Positions 22,352 through 26,282 of a stretch of DNA of 64,000 nucleotides are shown here, in pieces. The DNA comes from a bacterium (GTDB lineage: Bacteria; Babelota; Babeliae; Babelales; UBA12409), in NCBI GenBank assembly GCA_021823685.1, contig JAKANL010000006.1, positions 233 through 64,232 of the forward strand, given 5' to 3'. A program made the position numbers and the translations under genes. Under the pieces are notes generated by a model. The model was not told where the DNA came from, made no database searches, and worked only from the letters and a program-made list of their open reading frames with translations. Position 1 is the stretch's first letter; each line of letters opens with the position of its first letter.

Positions 22352-23362
22352 GTGCACAAGCTCTTTGCCGTCATGCGAAACGGCCGTTTTTATCATAGTC
22401 GGTTTGAGCGCCGGCAGTATTTTTTACTTCCATCGGCGGCATTTTACCTCAGAATGCTGTGCCGGCGATTTTTCGAACCCGAACATCCCATAACGGTAAC
22501 GCATGCGCATATCCCGCATACACAGCCGGCGTGGTGCCGTCTGATGTGGTTAGGCCATGCAACTTTTTTAATCCAGCTCGGCGGTTCGGGTCGCCAGCCG
22601 GTTACGCTTCTGACCGACCCCATTTTTGGTAATGCGACGCCCTTTTTCCGGCGCACGTGTCCACCGGGCCTTGCGATATCTGAGTTGCCGCCCATAGATT
22701 ATATTCTTATTTCCCATAACCACCGCGATCATATGGATGAATCAACGCTTATGCAGCTTTTTAAGCGCAATGAACATGTTATTTGTTTGGTGCCTCACGG
22801 CGACCGCTCTTGGTTTATCCAGCGCGGTTTTTTGCAGGTTCACGAACACTATTGGTGGCAAAGTTTGAGCAGCGGTGCGCTTACCTGTACCTTTTTGCCG
22901 GCCCGGCACTGGTCGGGGCGCTGGATTGGTGATCGCAACCGCTCGTTATGGGGAAGCTGGCATATCGGCTGGGGTGGTCGTAGCCTCTATTTTGCCGGTG
23001 ACACGGCGTATTGGAAACATTTTTCGTGTATTCAGGCCCACATGCCTTCCATAGACGTGGCTCTTTTGCCCATAGGGCCATGCGAGCCTCGTGGATATAT
23101 GCAACACCACCATATGAGTGATTCGTGGGTTATACGGGCATTTTTAGAGCTTGGCGCGAAGCATTTGGTGCCCATGCATTGGGGCACGTTTCGTTTGGGA
23201 ATTGATGCGGCCCATTTGCCCCTGGAACGTTTAATTTCTGCCTGGCAACGAGCCGGCGATGCCGTGGGTGATAAGCAATTGAGTCTGATTAACCATGGCC
23301 AAGAAATCGCGTTTGCGGATAATCAGGAGCCGGCAGAAACGAGCGAAATCGTAACGTTGTAA
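22352..23362 (+). CDS. MBL-fold metallo-hydrolase (NAPE-PLD/RomA-like)
   Basis: WLGHAT, TDP, SHNHRDHMD, HWSGR, AGDT, PMHWGTF. Confidence 0.9.
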   Translation: MHKLFAVMRNGRFYHSRFERRQYFLLPSAAFYLRMLCRRFFEPEHPITVTHAHIPHTQPAWCRLMWLGHATFLIQLGGSGRQPVTLLTDPIFGNATPFFRRTCPPGLAISELPPIDYILISHNHRDHMDESTLMQLFKRNEHVICLVPHGDRSWFIQRGFLQVHEHYWWQSLSSGALTCTFLPARHWSGRWIGDRNRSLWGSWHIGWGGRSLYFAGDTAYWKHFSCIQAHMPSIDVALLPIGPCEPRGYMQHHHMSDSWVIRAFLELGAKHLVPMHWGTFRLGIDAAHLPLERLISAWQRAGDAVGDKQLSLINHGQEIAFADNQEPAETSEIVTL

Positions 23363-23430
23363 TGCAAATTATTTGTTTCAAGAGGTCGAGGGCTGCAGTC
23401 CCTCTTCCCCTTGTTTTCAGGCCGACACTG

Positions 23431-23607
23431 CTATCGTGGCCTTATGACCGGCATGCTGACTCTGACTACTGGGGCAGGTACTTGAGGTACTGGCACCTGG
23501 GGTACTGGTGCTGGTGGCCTTGTTCCCATGGATGGGTAGATGAAGCCATGGCACTCCAGGCAGATCAGGCTTGCGCCCAAAAGGGTTATGATTACTGATT
23601 TATTCAT
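23431..23607 (-). CDS. Small secreted Pro/Val-rich peptide
   Basis: SD GAAGGA; MNKSVIITLLGASLICLECHG then PPAPVPQVPVPQVPAP. Confidence 0.6.
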   Translation of the reverse strand: MNKSVIITLLGASLICLECHGFIYPSMGTRPPAPVPQVPVPQVPAPVVRVSMPVIRPR

Positions 23608-23794
23608 AAAAATATCCTTCATAAATAATTAAACTAATTCACGCTTCTACACTCTCCGGTTAGGTCTTATATCAACTATGCATAGGGTACCTCCTGATTT
23701 TTGTGGTGAGACTGATTCAAATCGCCCTAAATTCGCCCACCCGCTCGCCCTGAGTGATTGTGTTGAAAGTCAACAACTTTTTGAACAATTTAAC

Positions 23795-24742
23795 TTAGCA
23801 GTAAGTTATGCATACCTCCCTTTTTTTCAATAGAGAATTAGCGATGACAATGAGTTTATGCATGATGGCCACAATAGCGATCTTAAAGGGTTTTTTGTTT
23901 GCTATTAAACGATCATAAAATTTCTTTAGCGGCAAATGATGCTTGATCGTTGTCAATGCGCACATATAAAGAGCGTTTCTTGGAACTATTCTTCCGCCTC
24001 GGATGAATCTTTTGCCTATGAAGCTTCCGCTTTCATAGGCATAGGGGCAGAGCCCAACAAGAGCCGCTATTTTTTTATTGCTTAACTCGCCAAGTTCAGG
24101 AACAAACGATAGCAAGACTGTCGCGGAAGCCTTCCCAATTCCTGGAATCGATTCTAAATACTTTGACTTTGTATTTAAGTTCTCATCTTTCTGAATCAAA
24201 GCACCTATTTCGATATCAATAGCCTTAATCGCAAGTTTTAACGTCTTGATCAGCTTTTTTATGCTCGCAAGACACAAAGCATGAGACGGATGCTTTAACC
24301 GTGTTTTTTCCATGGCTAAAAACTTTGTTAGATCATTTTTGCGACTAACGAAAGCTCTCAATTGATCAAGATTTGCATCTCGGCTCACCGCTATGTAATC
24401 TGGAGAATTTTTAGAGGCAAATTCAGCAATTTTTTGCGCATCAATTTTATCAGATTTACTTTTGCAACCACATGCGACAATAAAGCCTTTTATTCTTCGT
24501 GGATCAACTATCCAGAGGTTATAAGAATTCTTTTTCAAAAGCTGAGCAAGGAGTTTCTCATAACCGCCAGTGGCTTCACATGCAATTTGCGCAACATCGT
24601 ATACCGCCAATTCTCTGACAAACTTTTCTATTTCAACCGCTGAGTTGGCTATTTTAAAAAATCTTCCTATCGGGTGAATATAGGCGTCTAAGTTGTTCTT
24701 TGAAATATCGACACCTATGCACACATTTGATATATTTTTCAT
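23795..24742 (-). CDS. IS110-family DEDD recombinase/transposase
   Basis: GVDISK, CEATG, KSDKID (DEDD); SIPGIG, GLCP..ESGS, GGR..RNALYM; SD GAGGT before ATG 24742. Confidence 0.95.
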   Translation of the reverse strand: MKNISNVCIGVDISKNNLDAYIHPIGRFFKIANSAVEIEKFVRELAVYDVAQIACEATGGYEKLLAQLLKKNSYNLWIVDPRRIKGFIVACGCKSKSDKIDAQKIAEFASKNSPDYIAVSRDANLDQLRAFVSRKNDLTKFLAMEKTRLKHPSHALCLASIKKLIKTLKLAIKAIDIEIGALIQKDENLNTKSKYLESIPGIGKASATVLLSFVPELGELSNKKIAALVGLCPYAYESGSFIGKRFIRGGRIVPRNALYMCALTTIKHHLPLKKFYDRLIANKKPFKIAIVAIMHKLIVIANSLLKKREVCITYC

Positions 24743-24747
24743 GAAAT

Positions 24748-24960
24748 ACCTCTGGCTTGTAGACATTCGAGATCGCACTACCCAGTACGTCTCTAGTGAT
24801 TGTTCGAGGTGTTTTTAGAAAGCTGATACTCTCAAACTCAGAAACGGTCCTATCAGACCAAGCCTGTCACGAGATCTATCAGCTTTTTTCTCTGAACAAT
24901 CGATATCCAACAACTATCCAATCTTTAGCTTAGTAACCGTTTCGTATATTTAAAAGTACC
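24748..24960 (-). ncRNA. Putative IS110 bridge RNA (ends approximate)
   Basis: Two stem-loops with internal guides matching target (GACAGGCU / CUGAG) and donor (ACAAUCACU / UACAAG). Confidence 0.85.
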
Positions 24961-25081
24961 TAGTTTCAACATACAAGCTTGTCGAAGGGCGCTCGTTGAA
25001 ACCTTTAATCGTTCGATCATGGCGACGTTTTTAATCGTTTCTTTCGTGCGTGCCATTCGTTATCCTTTCATTTTTTACAAA

Positions 25082-25111
25082 CAAAAAACCCCCGGCTTTA
25101 AGCCGGGGGTT
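25082..25111 (-). terminator. Intrinsic terminator, possibly an attenuator
   Basis: ACCCCCGGCTTAAAGCCGGGGGT followed by a T tract on the minus strand. Confidence 0.8.
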
Positions 25112-25261
25112 AGTACTTTTTTTAACGTTTTTTATGCGTTAGGTAAGCAGTACACTCCTACGGCCCTTGAGGGTAAAAAAGAAAAAAGAGCAGAAAGAAG
25201 TGTTTTGTGCGATTTTAGAATGTTTTTTTGCTTAAACAGCAACAAAAAAGTTAATTTAAAT

Positions 25262-25294
25262 AAAAGAGAAGTGGCTGCTACGCCACTTCTCTTT
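25262..25294 (-). terminator. Terminator of the cysteine synthase-family gene
   Basis: 13-bp stem aaagagaagtggc/gccacttctcttt, 16 nt after the stop codon. Confidence 0.8.
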
Positions 25295-25310
25295 GCTATT
25301 ATTGTTTCAC

Positions 25311-26282
25311 TTACAGTTGCATAACTTCTGGTTGTTTGAGCGCGACGTGGTACGGAACCGTATCTTCAACGCGTCCGTAAAACCCTTTGCTCAAGTAAGC
25401 GCGTCCGGAATCGCCAAAGATCATGACGGCAATATCGCCTTGTTTGAGTTTTGGCAGATATTGCATAACCCCAGCTGCTACGGCGCCACTGCTCAGCCCT
25501 ACGAGTAGGCCATGCTGTTTGGCCAACGGCTGTAACATGCCTAAGGATTCTTCATCGGTTACTTCCAAGAACTCATCGATGATGCTGTAATCAGTAATTG
25601 GGGTATTAAAATCGATACCAATACCTTCGACGGCATATGGTTTTGGATTACCTTTGGTTGATCGCCACGAATTTTTGGCATCGATGGCAATAACTTTAAT
25701 ATCGGGGTTTTGTGATTTTAAAAAGCGCCCAGCGCCGCTGACCGTGCCCGAGGTTCCTGCTGCAGCAAAAAAGTGTGTAATTTTACCTTCGGTTTGATTC
25801 CAAATTTCAGGTCCGAGTAATGTTTGATGCGCCAAGCGGTTGGAGAGATTGAAATATTGATTTGGCATAAACGAATTTGGTGTTTGTTTTTGGATTTGCA
25901 CGGCAACATTGTGATAGTTGCGTGGGTCATCCATGGCTGCAGGCGGACACAAGACCACCGTCGCGCCATACGCTTGAATCGTGGTCAATTTTTCTTTGCT
26001 GATTTTTTCGGTGACCGTAATGATGACTTTATAGCCCTTTGCTGCACCGATCATGGCGACGGCGATGCCCTGGTTTCCTGACGAGGCATCGATGATGGTT
26101 CCGCCAGGTTTGAGCAGGCCCTTGCGTTCGGCTTCCTCAATCATAAAGACGGCTGAGCGATCTTTGACGCTGCCGCCGGGATTGAGATACTCAAGTTTCG
26201 CACATACGCGCGCCTTGCTGTCTAATGTGAGTTCGACAATCGGCGTATTGCCAATTGCCGTGAGTACATTTTTATAGATCAT
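25311..26282 (-). CDS. PLP-dependent cysteine synthase / cystathionine beta-synthase family
   Basis: KLEYLNPGGSVKDR, SSGNQG, GTSGT, EGIG, GLSSG. Confidence 0.9.
   Translation of the reverse strand: MIYKNVLTAIGNTPIVELTLDSKARVCAKLEYLNPGGSVKDRSAVFMIEEAERKGLLKPGGTIIDASSGNQGIAVAMIGAAKGYKVIITVTEKISKEKLTTIQAYGATVVLCPPAAMDDPRNYHNVAVQIQKQTPNSFMPNQYFNLSNRLAHQTLLGPEIWNQTEGKITHFFAAAGTSGTVSGAGRFLKSQNPDIKVIAIDAKNSWRSTKGNPKPYAVEGIGIDFNTPITDYSIIDEFLEVTDEESLGMLQPLAKQHGLLVGLSSGAVAAGVMQYLPKLKQGDIAVMIFGDSGRAYLSKGFYGRVEDTVPYHVALKQPEVMQL

What the first reader, a model, noticed from the sequence alone, without database searches (positions are those of the whole stretch)
23741..24990. IS110 element with a readable bridge RNA programmed against a host REP-like repeat
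Seen (minus strand): the empty target reconstructs as CGACAAG-CT-CAGGG and the circle-junction donor as ACAATCA-CT-TGTATG. The 235-bp non-coding end upstream of the DEDD recombinase holds two stem-loops. Loop 1 (closed by AAGCTGATA/TATCAGCTT, inner GGTC/GACC hairpin) carries TGACAGGCT (24861-24869; 7/9 match to left target plus core, the A-to-G change allows wobble) and TTCTGAG (24837-24843; CTGAG exactly complementary to core plus right target). Loop 2 (closed by ACCTC/GAGGT) carries ACAATCACT (24795-24803; exact 9/9 left donor plus core) and TACAAG (24756-24761; exact complement of core plus right donor). Established: this is the architecture of the IS621 bridge RNA, which also uses a CT core and targets REP sequences. 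Inference: an intact, compact (315 aa) RNA-guided recombinase with its own target/donor pair from a little-studied lineage.
Basis: partly seen in the sequence, partly recalled or inferred. Interest (0 to 1): 0.88.

Follow-up and report, generated by a model that had tools for sequence, protein, structure and literature searches.

The report
Bridge-RNA insertion sequence in a Dependentiae genome
This is an intact IS110-type jumping gene whose own small RNA carries readable address labels for a short hairpin repeat scattered through its host genome; the reading is correct, but it is one more example of a mechanism described in 2024, not a new one.

Summary
On the minus strand, a 1,225-bp element (CT core 24977-24976 to CT core 23754-23753) encodes a 315-aa DEDD/Ser recombinase. 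NCBIfam already names this family "IS110 family RNA-guided transposase". A 235-nt upstream non-coding end holds the RNA. An unconstrained consensus fold of 13 relatives puts all four proposed guides in two internal loops, target loop first and donor loop second. Across 17 insertion events from 13 guide families, guides match their own flanks far better than other families' flanks (148 matches against 74 +/- 10.7 on permutation; 0 of 20,000). The donor guide follows a change in the right end. A "handshake" base complements left-target position 7 in 16 of 16 events. A TTGACT-17-TATGTT promoter forms only across the circle junction. The target is a roughly 24-copy, mostly extragenic hairpin repeat. 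Of 84,863 CT sites in the 0.92-Mb genome, the only 7 without a true mismatch are free copies of that repeat, and each needs 2-3 wobble pairs. The host is a Dependentiae/Babeliales MAG and the element is single copy. RNA expression and mobility are untested. It is a new member of a known kind, of modest interest.

The parts
25087..25111 (-). Intrinsic-terminator-like hairpin upstream of the insertion site. It would insulate the element from read-through from the upstream gene.
   Evidence: 11-bp stem with 8 G-C pairs, followed by a T run.
24978..24990 (-). Left flank, the 5' half of the interrupted REP-like hairpin (GCCCT-TCGACAAG). The left target (LT) CGACAAG is at 24984-24978.
   Evidence: Joining the two flanks restores the repeat consensus. 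The same 24-mer stands uninterrupted in related genome G017.
24976..24977 (-). Left copy of the CT core dinucleotide.
   Evidence: Copies of relatives within one genome diverge exactly at this point.
24743..24977 (-). Left non-coding end (LE, 235 nt), which encodes the bridge RNA.
24968..24973 (-). -10 hexamer TATGTT of the promoter that forms only across the circle junction.
   Evidence: TTGACT, 17-nt spacer, TATGTT in 12 of 14 element families.
24964..24971 (-). Left subterminal inverted repeat TGTTGAAA.
   Evidence: 8 of 8 complementary to the right-end copy, and 7-8 of 8 in all 14 families.
24820..24885 (-). Target-binding stem-loop (66 nt): outer stem, internal loop and inner hairpin.
24861..24869 (-). 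Left target guide UGACAGGCU, on the 5' side of internal loop 1. It has the sense of the LT+core top strand.
   Evidence: 5 Watson-Crick + 2 wobble of 7 non-core positions; unpaired in the consensus fold.
24837..24844 (-). Right target guide UUUCUGAG, on the 3' side of internal loop 1, complementary to core+RT. The next base, U24836, can pair with A7 of the left donor (target-loop handshake position).
24748..24810 (-). Donor-binding stem-loop, closed by ACCUC/GAGGU.
24795..24803 (-). Left donor guide ACAAUCACU, matching 9 of 9 the last 7 nt of the right end plus the core.
   Evidence: It changes to ACAAUUACU together with the right end in L007/L008 and L009.
24754..24761 (-). Right donor guide UACAAG (24761-24756, complement of CT+TGTA), followed by the donor-loop handshake bases CC (24755-24754).
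   Evidence: The first handshake base complements LT position 7 in 16 of 16 events.
24749..24752 (-). Shine-Dalgarno GAGG. It lies in the 3' strand of the donor-loop closing stem, 6 nt before the ATG.
   Evidence: GAGGTA is invariant in the 13 relatives.
23795..24742 (-). Recombinase gene, 315 aa. Catalytic residues are D12, E56, D98, D101 in the RuvC-like domain and S238-G239 in the Tnp domain.
23753..23794 (-). Right non-coding end (RE, 42 nt with the core). It holds the -35 hexamer TTGACT (23773-23768), the right subterminal inverted repeat TTTCAACA (23768-23761), the left donor ACAATCA (23761-23755) and core CT (23754-23753).
23741..23752 (-). Right flank, the 3' half of the REP-like hairpin (CAGGGCGAGCGG). 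The right target (RT) CAGGG is at 23752-23748.

Best explanation
This is an intact, single-copy insertion sequence of the IS110 group, sitting in the loop-stem junction of a REP-like hairpin repeat of a Dependentiae/Babeliales genome.

Proposed mechanism (inferred by analogy with IS621):
- The element excises as a circle whose RE-LE junction creates a sigma-70-type promoter (TTGACT, 17 nt, TATGTT).
- That promoter transcribes the left end into a bridge RNA of roughly 150-215 nt, followed by the recombinase mRNA.
- The RNA folds into two stem-loops, each with an internal loop.
- Loop 2 (donor-binding) carries ACAAUCACU and UACAAG, which read the element's own joined ends (ACAATCA-CT-TGTA).
- A tetramer of the DEDD/Ser recombinase brings the two DNAs together and exchanges strands at the CT core.
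- One handshake base after each 3' guide pairs with position 7 of the other DNA.

The target guides address the repeat family CAYYCT-TCGAYARRCTC-AGRRTG. Every available copy needs two or three rG.dT or rU.dG wobbles.

Shown here: the anatomy, the conserved fold, guide-target, guide-donor and handshake covariation, the catalytic residues, and the repeat as the best genomic address. Inferred: transcription, RNA dependence and present-day mobility.
For: Protein:
- Pfam PF01548 (E 6e-17) and PF02371 (E 5.1e-15) both match.
- NCBIfam NF033542 'IS110 family RNA-guided transposase' scores 180.1 bits against a cut-off of 140.
- The only PDB relatives are the ISCro4 (E 4.7e-33) and IS621 (E 4.3e-32) transposases.
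- D12, E56, D98, D101 and S238-G239 align with IS621 D11, E60, D102, D105 and S241-G242 (paper passages). All are invariant in 45 relatives.

Boundaries:
- In four relatives' genomes that hold two to four copies, the copies diverge exactly at CT|TGTATG and ACAATYA-CT|.
- Joining the window's flanks restores the repeat consensus. The same 24-mer stands uninterrupted in related genome G017.

RNA fold:
- RNAalifold on 13 relatives leaves the four guides in internal loops.
- 96.6% of cells are paired and 9 of 36 pairs are compensatory. 0 of 500 shuffles reach the observed value for four of the five measures (the fifth: 116 of 500), and slid controls give 28-40% paired.
- A covariance model built from these 13 finds full-length matches on the ORF strand at E <= 0.01 in 43 of 96 more distant loci. 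On the alignment of all 58 matches at E <= 1, 33 of 34 pairs are compensatory and 90.6% of cells are paired, against 65.4% in shuffles.

Guides:
- Across 17 distinct insertion events from 13 guide families, own LTG-LT matches average 4.25 of 7 against 2.19 for cross pairs. Own RTG-RT matches average 4.71 of 6 against 1.94.
- The total is 148 matches against a permutation mean of 74 +/- 10.7 (maximum 134), with 0 of 20,000 permutations reaching it.
- The left donor guide changes from ACAAUCA to ACAAUUA together with the right end in 2 families.
- The handshake base complements LT position 7 in 16 of 16 events, through three different base states.

Promoter:
- The junction promoter is present in 12 of 14 families.
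- No consensus promoter lies upstream of the RNA in the integrated state, and a terminator lies just outside the element.

Target:
- Of 84,863 CT sites in the genome, 7 have no non-wobble mismatch over 12 guide positions. All 7 are free copies of the repeat.
- 18 of 24 repeat copies lie outside ORFs of 150 aa or more, although 84% of the genome lies under such ORFs.

Dimensions resemble IS621: target loop 66 nt against 65, donor loop 63 nt against 68 (section read).
Against: - No RNA data were available: no RNA run was listed.
- No empty site or circle junction appears in the four DNA runs laid, where the site is occupied wherever contigs cover a junction.
- The element is single copy although 7 equal or better free targets exist. 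This fits recent arrival or low activity.
- The occupied site matches the guides less well (8 Watson-Crick + 4 wobble of 12) than the four best free sites (10 + 2).
- No site in the genome is a perfect Watson-Crick match.
- Several relatives sit at sites with poor left-target matches: L003 1 of 7, L013 1 of 7, and L010, L011, L083 and L084 3 of 7.
- The single-sequence minimum-energy fold pairs part of the two target guides with each other.
- No Rfam 15 family matches the left end even at E <= 10. I did not establish whether Rfam 15 holds a bridge-RNA model.
Confidence: 0.88

Rival explanations
1. The element has bridge-RNA anatomy but is now an immobile relic, or a recently arrived dead end. 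On this view it keeps readable guides but no longer transposes in this host.
For: - It is single copy in a 94%-complete genome, even though 7 free repeat copies have no true mismatch.
- The same occupied site is seen in contigs of three runs of one study, with no empty-site or circle joint. Contigs drop rare variants.
- Among 40 other genomes of the same order, a close relative of this IS was found in only 1 and a distant one (41% identity) in 1 more.
Against: - The ORF is full length compared with relatives of 313-315 aa.
- All catalytic residues are intact.
- Both ends, the 8 of 8 subterminal repeat and the junction promoter hexamers are intact.
- The donor guides match the ends 9 of 9 and 6 of 6, which decay would erode.
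Confidence: 0.25
2. The structured left end is mainly a translational leader for the recombinase, of the kind reported for the ISPpu9 5'-UTR, and target choice is made by the protein.
For: - The Shine-Dalgarno GAGG forms the 3' strand of the donor-loop closing stem.
- An abstract in the listing (PMC8450116) reports regulation of an IS110-family transposase by the secondary structure of its mRNA 5'-UTR.
Against: - A leader-only role does not explain why the two loop-1 segments vary between families while the stems stay fixed, nor why they track the flanking DNA (0 of 20,000 permutations).
- It does not explain why loop 2 copies the element's own ends.
- It does not explain why the handshake base tracks LT position 7 in 16 of 16 events.
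- The two roles are not exclusive.
Confidence: 0.03
3. It belongs to the IS1111 group and uses a seekRNA with the arrangement typical of that group.
For: An 8-bp perfect subterminal inverted repeat flanks the donor. Such repeats are the mark of IS1111-type elements: 7-17 bp in PMC11208160 and 11-13 bp in PMC11187229.
Against: - The long non-coding end and the RNA lie upstream of the gene (235 nt against 42 nt), as in the IS110 type.
- The order of the guide segments (top-strand-sense guide on the 5' side, complement on the 3' side, target loop first) is that of IS621.
- The closest solved relatives are IS621 and ISCro4.
- No tree including IS1111-type proteins was built.
Confidence: 0.03
4. 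The matches between loop segments and flanks are chance, or a by-product of palindromic flanking DNA.
For: - The target is part of a hairpin, so some self-complementarity between the two target guides is expected. It is seen in the single-sequence fold.
Against: - The permutation test gives 148 against 74 +/- 10.7.
- Families with unrelated targets, such as CTTTTTAG, CTTCGCGA and CTATGGCG, carry exactly matching 8-nt guides.
- ACAATCACT is over-represented in the window.
Confidence: 0.01

Closest known systems
IS621 (Escherichia coli), the founding bridge-RNA element (PMC11208160, PMC11208158; passages and sections 7 and 11 read)
   Same: - Same domain order, with DEDD and Ser-Gly catalytic residues aligned.
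- RNA in the left end; target loop first, then donor loop.
[quoted passage not shown]
- CT core.
- Handshake base for position 7.
- Sigma-70 promoter rebuilt at the RE-LE junction.
- REP-type targets.
- Natural wobble at the LTG-LT interface, as stated for IS621 in bioRxiv 10.64898/2026.03.19.712850.
- Loop modules of nearly the same size (66/63 nt against 65/68 nt).
   Different: - The protein match is distant (phmmer E 4.3e-32; I did not compute an identity). It is 315 aa against 326.
- An 8-bp subterminal inverted repeat, against the 2-3 bp described for the IS110 group.
- The right target guide reads 5-6 nt beyond the core, against 2 in the natural 4-nt IS621 guide.
- The target is a different repeat, and the core lies at the 3' edge of the hairpin loop.
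- The host is a Dependentiae bacterium.
- No experimental data exist for this element.
ISCro4 (PDB 9t56, best PDB match)
   Same: Same family and fold by sequence (E 4.7e-33 over residues 9-307).
   Different: I compared the protein only. I did not see its RNA or its target.
ISPpu10 (Pseudomonas putida; bioRxiv 10.64898/2026.03.19.712850, passages read)
   Same: - IS110 element with a bridge RNA that inserts into one REP-type intergenic repeat able to form a stem-loop.
- Junction promoter with -35 in the RE and -10 in the LE.
- U.G wobble tolerated at the LTG-LT interface.
   Different: - In ISPpu10 the stem-loop lies 5' of the site and involves the left target.
- Here the left target lies in the hairpin loop and the right target is the 3' arm of the stem.
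- Whether the hairpin matters for this element is untested.
IS1111-group elements with seekRNA (ISEc11 and others; PMC11187229, passages read)
   Same: DEDD transposase, circular intermediate with a junction promoter, RNA-guided target choice, subterminal inverted repeats.
   Different: - There the non-coding region and RNA lie downstream of the gene.
- The order of the two target-matching segments is reversed.
- The repeats are usually 11-13 bp.

Membership tests
IS110 family, IS110 group (bridge recombinase plus bridge RNA) | RuvC-like DEDD domain followed by a Tnp domain with a catalytic Ser | tested here: met
   - PF01548 and PF02371 both match.
- D12/E56/D98/D101/S238-G239 align with IS621 D11/E60/D102/D105/S241-G242.
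- These residues are invariant in 45 relatives.
IS110 family, IS110 group (bridge recombinase plus bridge RNA) | Curated family model passed | tested here: met
   NCBIfam NF033542 'IS110 family RNA-guided transposase' scores 180.1 bits against a cut-off of 140.
IS110 family, IS110 group (bridge recombinase plus bridge RNA) | Long non-coding left end upstream of the gene and a short right end | tested here: met
   The LE is 235 nt and the RE is 42 nt. The same layout is seen in 19 related loci.
IS110 family, IS110 group (bridge recombinase plus bridge RNA) | Left-end RNA with two stem-loops, each holding an internal loop; target loop first, donor loop second | tested here: met
   - The RNAalifold consensus gives this architecture.
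- 9 of 36 pairs are compensatory, with 0 of 500 shuffles reaching four of five measures.
- In the alignment of the wider family's 58 matches, 33 of 34 pairs are compensatory.
IS110 family, IS110 group (bridge recombinase plus bridge RNA) | Loop-1 segments pair with opposite strands of the left and right target and covary with them | tested here: met
   Total of 148 matches against 74 +/- 10.7, with 0 of 20,000 permutations reaching it, over 17 events in 13 families. In this element, 8 Watson-Crick + 4 wobble of 12 non-core positions.
IS110 family, IS110 group (bridge recombinase plus bridge RNA) | Loop-2 segments pair with the joined element ends (donor) | tested here: met
   The matches are 9 of 9 and 6 of 6. 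The guide and the right end change together in 2 families. Otherwise the donor is nearly invariant, so covariation evidence is thin.
IS110 family, IS110 group (bridge recombinase plus bridge RNA) | Shared core dinucleotide at both ends and in all four guides | tested here: met
   CT is present at both junctions. The left guides end in CU and the right guides end in AG.
IS110 family, IS110 group (bridge recombinase plus bridge RNA) | Handshake guide complementary to position 7 of the non-cognate DNA | tested here: met
   - The donor-loop handshake base complements LT position 7 in 16 of 16 events, as C, G or U.
- The target-loop base U can pair with donor A7, but this pair is invariant.
- Position 6 does not covary.
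IS110 family, IS110 group (bridge recombinase plus bridge RNA) | Sigma-70 promoter rebuilt across the RE-LE junction of the circle | tested here: met
   TTGACT, 17 nt, TATGTT is present in 12 of 14 families. This is sequence evidence only; transcription was not tested.
IS110 family, IS110 group (bridge recombinase plus bridge RNA) | RNA is expressed, binds the recombinase and is required for recombination | not testable with these tools
   No RNA run was listed.
IS110 family, IS110 group (bridge recombinase plus bridge RNA) | Subterminal inverted repeat short (2-3 bp) or absent | tested here: not met
   The repeat is 8 of 8 bp, TTTCAACA/TGTTGAAA, and 7-8 of 8 in 14 families. This is a descriptive trait with known exceptions, not part of the mechanism.
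IS1111 group (seekRNA type) | Long non-coding region and guide RNA downstream of the transposase gene | tested here: not met
   The RNA lies upstream, and the downstream end is 42 nt.
IS1111 group (seekRNA type) | Subterminal inverted repeats of 7-17 bp | tested here: met
   The repeat is 8 bp.
REP (repetitive extragenic palindromic) elements | Short, multi-copy, extragenic imperfect palindrome with a structurally conserved stem | tested here: met
   - There are 24 copies, and stem positions 3-4 change in compensating pairs: CACC/GGTG, CATT/AATG, CATC/GATG, CACA/TGTG, CACG/CGTG.
- 18 of 24 copies lie outside ORFs of 150 aa or more.
- Copies are often clustered 100-180 bp apart.
REP (repetitive extragenic palindromic) elements | Associated RAYT (Y1 transposase) in the genome | tested here: not met
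   PF01797 gives no match in G000, which is 94% complete; the control rings in 6 of 14 genomes. For this reason I call the repeat 'REP-like'.

The most novel reading that the evidence does not exclude
The target guides may be tuned for wobble. The guide carries G or U at the three purine positions where copies of the host repeat differ (LT position 6 and RT positions 4-5), and U opposite a constant C at LT position 1. One bridge RNA would then address many alleles of a polymorphic repeat (YGACARR-CT-CAGRR) that no Watson-Crick-only guide could cover.

A relative with 72% protein identity from another metagenome (L082) carries the same left guide and sits in the same repeat with the same wobbles. 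The family also combines an IS110-type upstream bridge RNA with an IS1111-type 8-bp subterminal repeat, which could mark an intermediate between the two groups.
Probability: 0.25. Interest if true: 0.5.

Novelty: new member of a known kind. Interest (0 to 1): 0.3.

Why it matters
The case gives a fully resolved natural set from a phylum (Dependentiae/TM6) for which my literature search found no paper mentioning IS110. The set comprises the recombinase, bridge RNA, donor, target and junction promoter.

It also comes with 14 naturally reprogrammed relatives. These share one donor and scaffold but carry different target guides. Such a series is useful for choosing orthologues and for learning which guide positions tolerate wobble or mismatch in nature.

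It shows that the bridge-RNA rules worked out on IS621 can be read directly from raw sequence in a distant lineage. This covers strand asymmetry of the guides, the core in all four guides and the handshake at position 7.

It does not change what is known about the mechanism.

Tried and rejected
1. Rfam. An Rfam 15 scan of 23000-25800 at E <= 10 gave 22 weak matches, none in the left end 24743-24977. The best, Phe_leader at 36.5 bits against a 55-bit cut-off, is only the terminator hairpin at 25081-25216. I did not establish whether Rfam 15 holds a bridge-RNA family.

2. Public reads. No RNA holder was listed. Contigs of four DNA runs of one study were laid. Contigs span both junctions in X1 and X2 and the left junction in X3; in X3 the right junction and in X4 both junctions fall short of the 31-letter rule. 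No joint for an empty site or a circle was seen. One run may be the source of this DNA. This is no evidence on mobility.

3. Long-range 'anti-guide' helix. GAUUGUUC, just 5' of the target loop, is complementary to GAACAAUC of the donor guide. In the 13 close relatives, 96.2% of cells pair, but only 2 cells are compensatory and 37 of 500 shuffles do as well. In 50 more distant loci the best upstream complement is no better than in mismatched controls (5.74 against 5.57 of 8). I rejected it as a family feature. The conserved 8-mer in the close clade remains unexplained.

4. Wobble enrichment. 24 of 66 guide-target mismatches are wobble-compatible (36%), against 21% in cross pairs. This is suggestive only, because the events are related.

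5. Handshake position 6 shows no covariation.

6. Locus searches. The single-protein locus search in genome contigs found nothing. The search with alignment A1 worked.

7. RAYT. A search for a RAYT in the genome found none.

8. Not run. I did not predict a structure or a complex, because the sequence-level match to solved IS621 and ISCro4 already answers the fold question. I built no tree against IS1111-type proteins. I made no direct comparison with the IS621 RNA sequence, because I had no IS621 locus from a tool.

9. Supplements. Supplementary files of the papers were not opened. The covariance models and orthologue tables of PMC11208160 and bioRxiv 10.64898/2026.10.21.760802 may already list this clade.

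I sent it again with that field filled and nothing else changed.
Full report
**What is there**

The minus strand of the window reads ...GCCCTTCGACAAG-CT-TGTATGTTGAAA... at 24990-24964 and ...TTGACTTTCAACACAATCA-CT-CAGGGCGAGCGG at 23773-23741. Between the two CT dinucleotides lie three parts:
- a 235-nt non-coding left end (24977-24743);
- an ORF of 315 aa from ATG 24742 to the stop at 23795 (one search lists it from an upstream GTG as 327 aa; the ATG follows a GAGG Shine-Dalgarno and gives the length of the relatives);
- a 42-nt right end.

**The protein**

- It has DEDD_Tnp_IS110 (PF01548, E 6e-17) and Transposase_20 (PF02371, E 5.1e-15).
- It passes the NCBIfam equivalog NF033542, 'IS110 family RNA-guided transposase', at 180.1 bits against a cut-off of 140.
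- Its only relatives among solved structures are the ISCro4 (E 4.7e-33) and IS621 (E 4.3e-32) transposases.
- In the IS621 alignment, D12, E56, D98, D101 and S238-G239 fall on the residues that the structure paper names as catalytic: D11, E60, D102, D105, S241 and the conserved G242 (PMC11208158, passages). The PDB chain carries two extra N-terminal residues.
- All six residues are invariant in an alignment of 45 relatives.

**Host and copy number**

- The assembly is 0.92 Mb in 19 contigs, 45.7% G+C and 94% complete.
- Among the 120 listed relatives of its methionyl-tRNA synthetase, the hits with an informative organism name are Candidatus Babeliales, candidate division TM6 or Candidatus Dependentiae. 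The best identity is 66%.
- The element is single copy by DNA, by Pfam family and by RNA model.
- Among 40 other genomes of the same order, only two hold a relative at E <= 1e-40. One has four copies at 65-68% identity and the other a single match at 41%.

**Boundaries**

The window's copy is unique, so I took the ends from relatives. Locus searches with an alignment of 45 proteins returned 80 genome loci and 80 metagenome loci. Nineteen of them encode proteins 58-73% identical.

In four genomes that hold two to four copies, the copies are identical inside and diverge exactly at CT|TGTATG on the left and ACAATYA-CT| on the right.

Removing the window's element and one CT restores CTTCGACAAGCTCAGGGCGAGCGG. 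That 24-mer fits a repeat family of the same genome. It also stands uninterrupted in a related genome, G017.

**The RNA**

*Single-sequence folds.* The 146 nt upstream of the ATG fold into two stem-loops (-45.5 kcal/mol, z -3.13). In that fold, four bases of the two target guides pair with each other.

*Consensus fold.* The 13 distinct left ends of the close clade align without difficulty. An unconstrained RNAalifold consensus gives:
- an outer stem, a 9-nt 5' loop segment, a small hairpin and a 10-nt 3' loop segment;
- a short linker;
- a second stem, a 5' loop segment, a hairpin and a 3' loop segment.

The four strings proposed as guides are the unpaired loop segments, apart from two invariant pairs that the fold draws inside the donor loop. 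They are also the most variable columns of an otherwise 78%-identical alignment.

*Pair counts in the close clade.* Pair counts give 96.6% of cells paired and 9 of 36 pairs with compensatory change. No shuffle of 500 reaches four of the five measures (the fifth: 116 of 500), and slid controls give 28-40% paired.

*Wider family.* I built a covariance model from these 13 sequences and ran it on 96 more distant loci (31-65% protein identity, many phyla).
- It gave full-length matches on the ORF strand at E <= 0.01 in 43 of the 96.
- On the alignment of all 58 matches at E <= 1, 33 of 34 pairs show compensatory change and 90.6% of cells pair, against 65.4% in shuffles. That alignment is fitted to the model and leans towards it.

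*Size.* The modules are 66 nt and 63 nt, close to those given for IS621 (nucleotides 34-98 and 110-177; PMC11208158 section 7).

**Guides against DNA**

The published rule (PMC11208160, passages) is as follows. [quoted passage not shown] *This element.*
- The donor loop carries ACAAUCACU, matching the right end plus core 9 of 9.
- It also carries UACAAG, the exact complement of CT+TGTA.
- The target loop carries UGACAGGCU against CGACAAG-CT: 5 identities and 2 wobble-compatible differences in the 7 non-core positions.
- It also carries UUUCUGAG against CT-CAGGGC: 3 identities and 2 wobbles in 6.

*Across relatives.* The test covered 17 distinct insertion events from 13 guide families.

| Comparison | Own pairs | Cross-family pairs |
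|---|---|---|
| Left target guide vs LT (of 7) | 4.25 | 2.19 |
| Right target guide vs RT (of 6) | 4.71 | 1.94 |

The total is 148 matches against 74 +/- 10.7 when families are permuted (maximum 134). None of 20,000 permutations reaches it.

Some families match perfectly:
- L008: GCCAACCCU on GCCAACC-CT, and CUAAAAAG on CT-TTTTAG.
- L009: UCGCGAAG on CT-TCGCGA.
- L167: the left guide matches 9 of 9 (read by eye).

*Donor.* The donor is nearly invariant. Where the right end reads ACAATTA instead of ACAATCA (two families), the donor guide has changed with it.

*Handshake.* The base that follows the AG of the right donor guide complements position 7 of the left target in 16 of 16 events, as C, G or U. 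This is the handshake covariation described for IS110 orthologues (PMC11208158 section 11). Position 6 does not covary.

*Results against a simple picture.* Several relatives sit at sites with a good right match but a poor left match: L003 and L013 at 1 of 7, and L010, L011, L083 and L084 at 3 of 7. A 2026 preprint reports off-target insertions of IS621 that match only half of the bridge RNA (10.64898/2026.08.31.748434, abstract only). I did not check whether its halves correspond to left and right target.

**Expression signals**

- Across the joined ends, TTGACT (right end), a 17-nt spacer and TATGTT (left end) form a promoter. Twelve of 14 element families have exactly this. One has a 16-nt spacer and one has TTGCTT.
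- In the integrated state, no consensus promoter lies upstream of the RNA on its strand. A strong terminator lies just outside the left junction.
- This matches the junction promoter described for IS621 and ISPpu10.
- The Shine-Dalgarno GAGG is the 3' strand of the donor-loop closing stem. Its possible effect on translation is an inference.

**The target**

The genome holds 24 copies of CAYYCT-TCGAYARRCTC-AGRRTG-AGCGG. The two variable stem positions change in compensating pairs: CACC/GGTG, CATT/AATG, CATC/GATG, CACA/TGTG and CACG/CGTG. This is the signature of a conserved hairpin.
- Eighteen of the 24 lie outside any ORF of 150 aa or more, while 84% of the genome lies under such ORFs. Many stand 100-180 bp apart.
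- The left target is in the loop, the CT core is at its 3' edge, and the right target is the 3' arm.

I scored all 84,863 CT sites of the genome against the 12 non-core guide positions.
- Seven sites have no true mismatch, and all seven are free copies of this repeat.
- The nine best-ranked sites are all repeat copies.
- No site has fewer than two Watson-Crick mismatches.
- The occupied site (8 Watson-Crick + 4 wobble) is a poorer match than the four best free sites (10 + 2).

Other observations on the repeat:
- L082 (72% protein identity, from a different metagenome) carries the same left guide and sits in the same repeat.
- The repeat occurs in 12 of 41 genomes of the order, counting this one, with up to 102 copies. 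The reversed-pattern control finds none.
- It occurs far more widely than the IS (3 of 41).
- No RAYT gene was found, so I call it REP-like.

**Comparison with what is known**

All mechanistic marks of an IS621-type bridge system that sequence can show are met: domains and catalytic residues, left-end RNA, two internal loops in the right order, strand-asymmetric guides that include the core, covariation with target and donor, handshake, and junction promoter.

One descriptive trait differs. The donor is flanked by an 8-bp perfect subterminal inverted repeat (TTTCAACA/TGTTGAAA; 7-8 of 8 in all 14 families).
- The IS110 group is described with 2-3 bp or 'not present or short and imperfect'.
- IS1111-type elements have 7-17 bp or 11-13 bp, and their RNA lies downstream.
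- Exceptions are on record.

Natural wobble at the LTG-LT interface and REP stem-loop targets are also already described.

**Novelty**

- Large surveys have predicted bridge RNAs in thousands of IS110 elements. A later one clustered 181,180 recombinase-adjacent sequences.
- NCBI's own model names the protein as RNA-guided.
- A full-text search for Dependentiae with IS110 found no paper. A broader search for Dependentiae, insertion sequence, transposase and palindromic found none among the 10 papers listed that mentions Dependentiae. Supplementary tables were not available to me.

This is a correct and unusually complete reading of a new member of a known kind.

**Verdict**

- Observation: confirmed.
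- Interpretation: supported.
- Confidence that this is a bridge-RNA-guided IS110-group element addressed to the host repeat: 0.88.
- Present-day activity is open.
- Interest: 0.3.

Noticed in passing
G000 genome-wide (e.g. C10:14930-15214, C13:77125-77318); G029: The REP-like hairpin repeat has a patchy spread. It occurs in 12 of 41 genomes of the order, from 1 to 102 copies. In G029 the copies mostly stand as inverted pairs about 81 bp apart, which looks like a BIME or a small non-autonomous mobile unit. No RAYT was found in G000.
   Followed up: partly
L011:1255-1290: In this relative the first 18 nt of the left end (CT plus the following 16 nt) are present twice in tandem at the left junction. 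Its guides match the flanks only partly (3 of 7 and 3 of 6).
   Followed up: no
L003:1246-1276 and 2489-2520: One of four identical copies in a Babeliales MAG sits outside the usual repeat. Its left flank matches the left guide at 1 of 7 positions, while its right flank matches at 4 of 6 plus 2 wobbles. It may be a natural example of insertion guided by half of the target loop.
   Followed up: partly
window 24893-24900 (minus strand) against 24798-24805: A conserved GATTGTTC just 5' of the target loop is the exact complement of GAACAATC, which overlaps the left donor guide. In the 13 close relatives 96.2% of cells pair, and two sequences change both sides. The wider family does not share it. 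Its role is unexplained.
   Followed up: yes
window 24748-24752: The ribosome-binding GAGG of the recombinase gene is the 3' strand of the donor-loop closing stem, and it is invariant in the 13 relatives. Folding of the bridge RNA and translation of the mRNA might therefore compete.
   Followed up: no
window 23761-23768 and 24964-24971: An 8-bp perfect subterminal inverted repeat flanks the donor in an element with an upstream bridge RNA. Compared with most relatives (TTTTAACA/TGTTAAAA), the window copy has changed both sides (C and G).
   Followed up: partly
L121, L137, L134 and about 40 other loci: The covariance model built from the Dependentiae RNAs recognises full-length RNAs upstream of IS110 genes at 31-43% protein identity in Verrucomicrobiota, Planctomycetota, Acidobacteriota and other phyla. 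Many share the left guide UUCAACCCU and a donor-loop segment GAACCGUUGCC, which does not end in CU.
   Followed up: partly
window 25081-25216: Sub-threshold Rfam matches (Phe_leader at 36.5 bits against 55, Hrs12 at 33.7 against 70) fall on the terminator hairpin and its T-rich leader, between the upstream gene and the insertion site. They are probably only terminator likeness.
   Followed up: no
window 25056-24978 (minus strand): By eye, a short ATG-started frame preceded by AAAGGA runs into the repeat and across the left junction into the element. It is probably not a gene.
   Followed up: no
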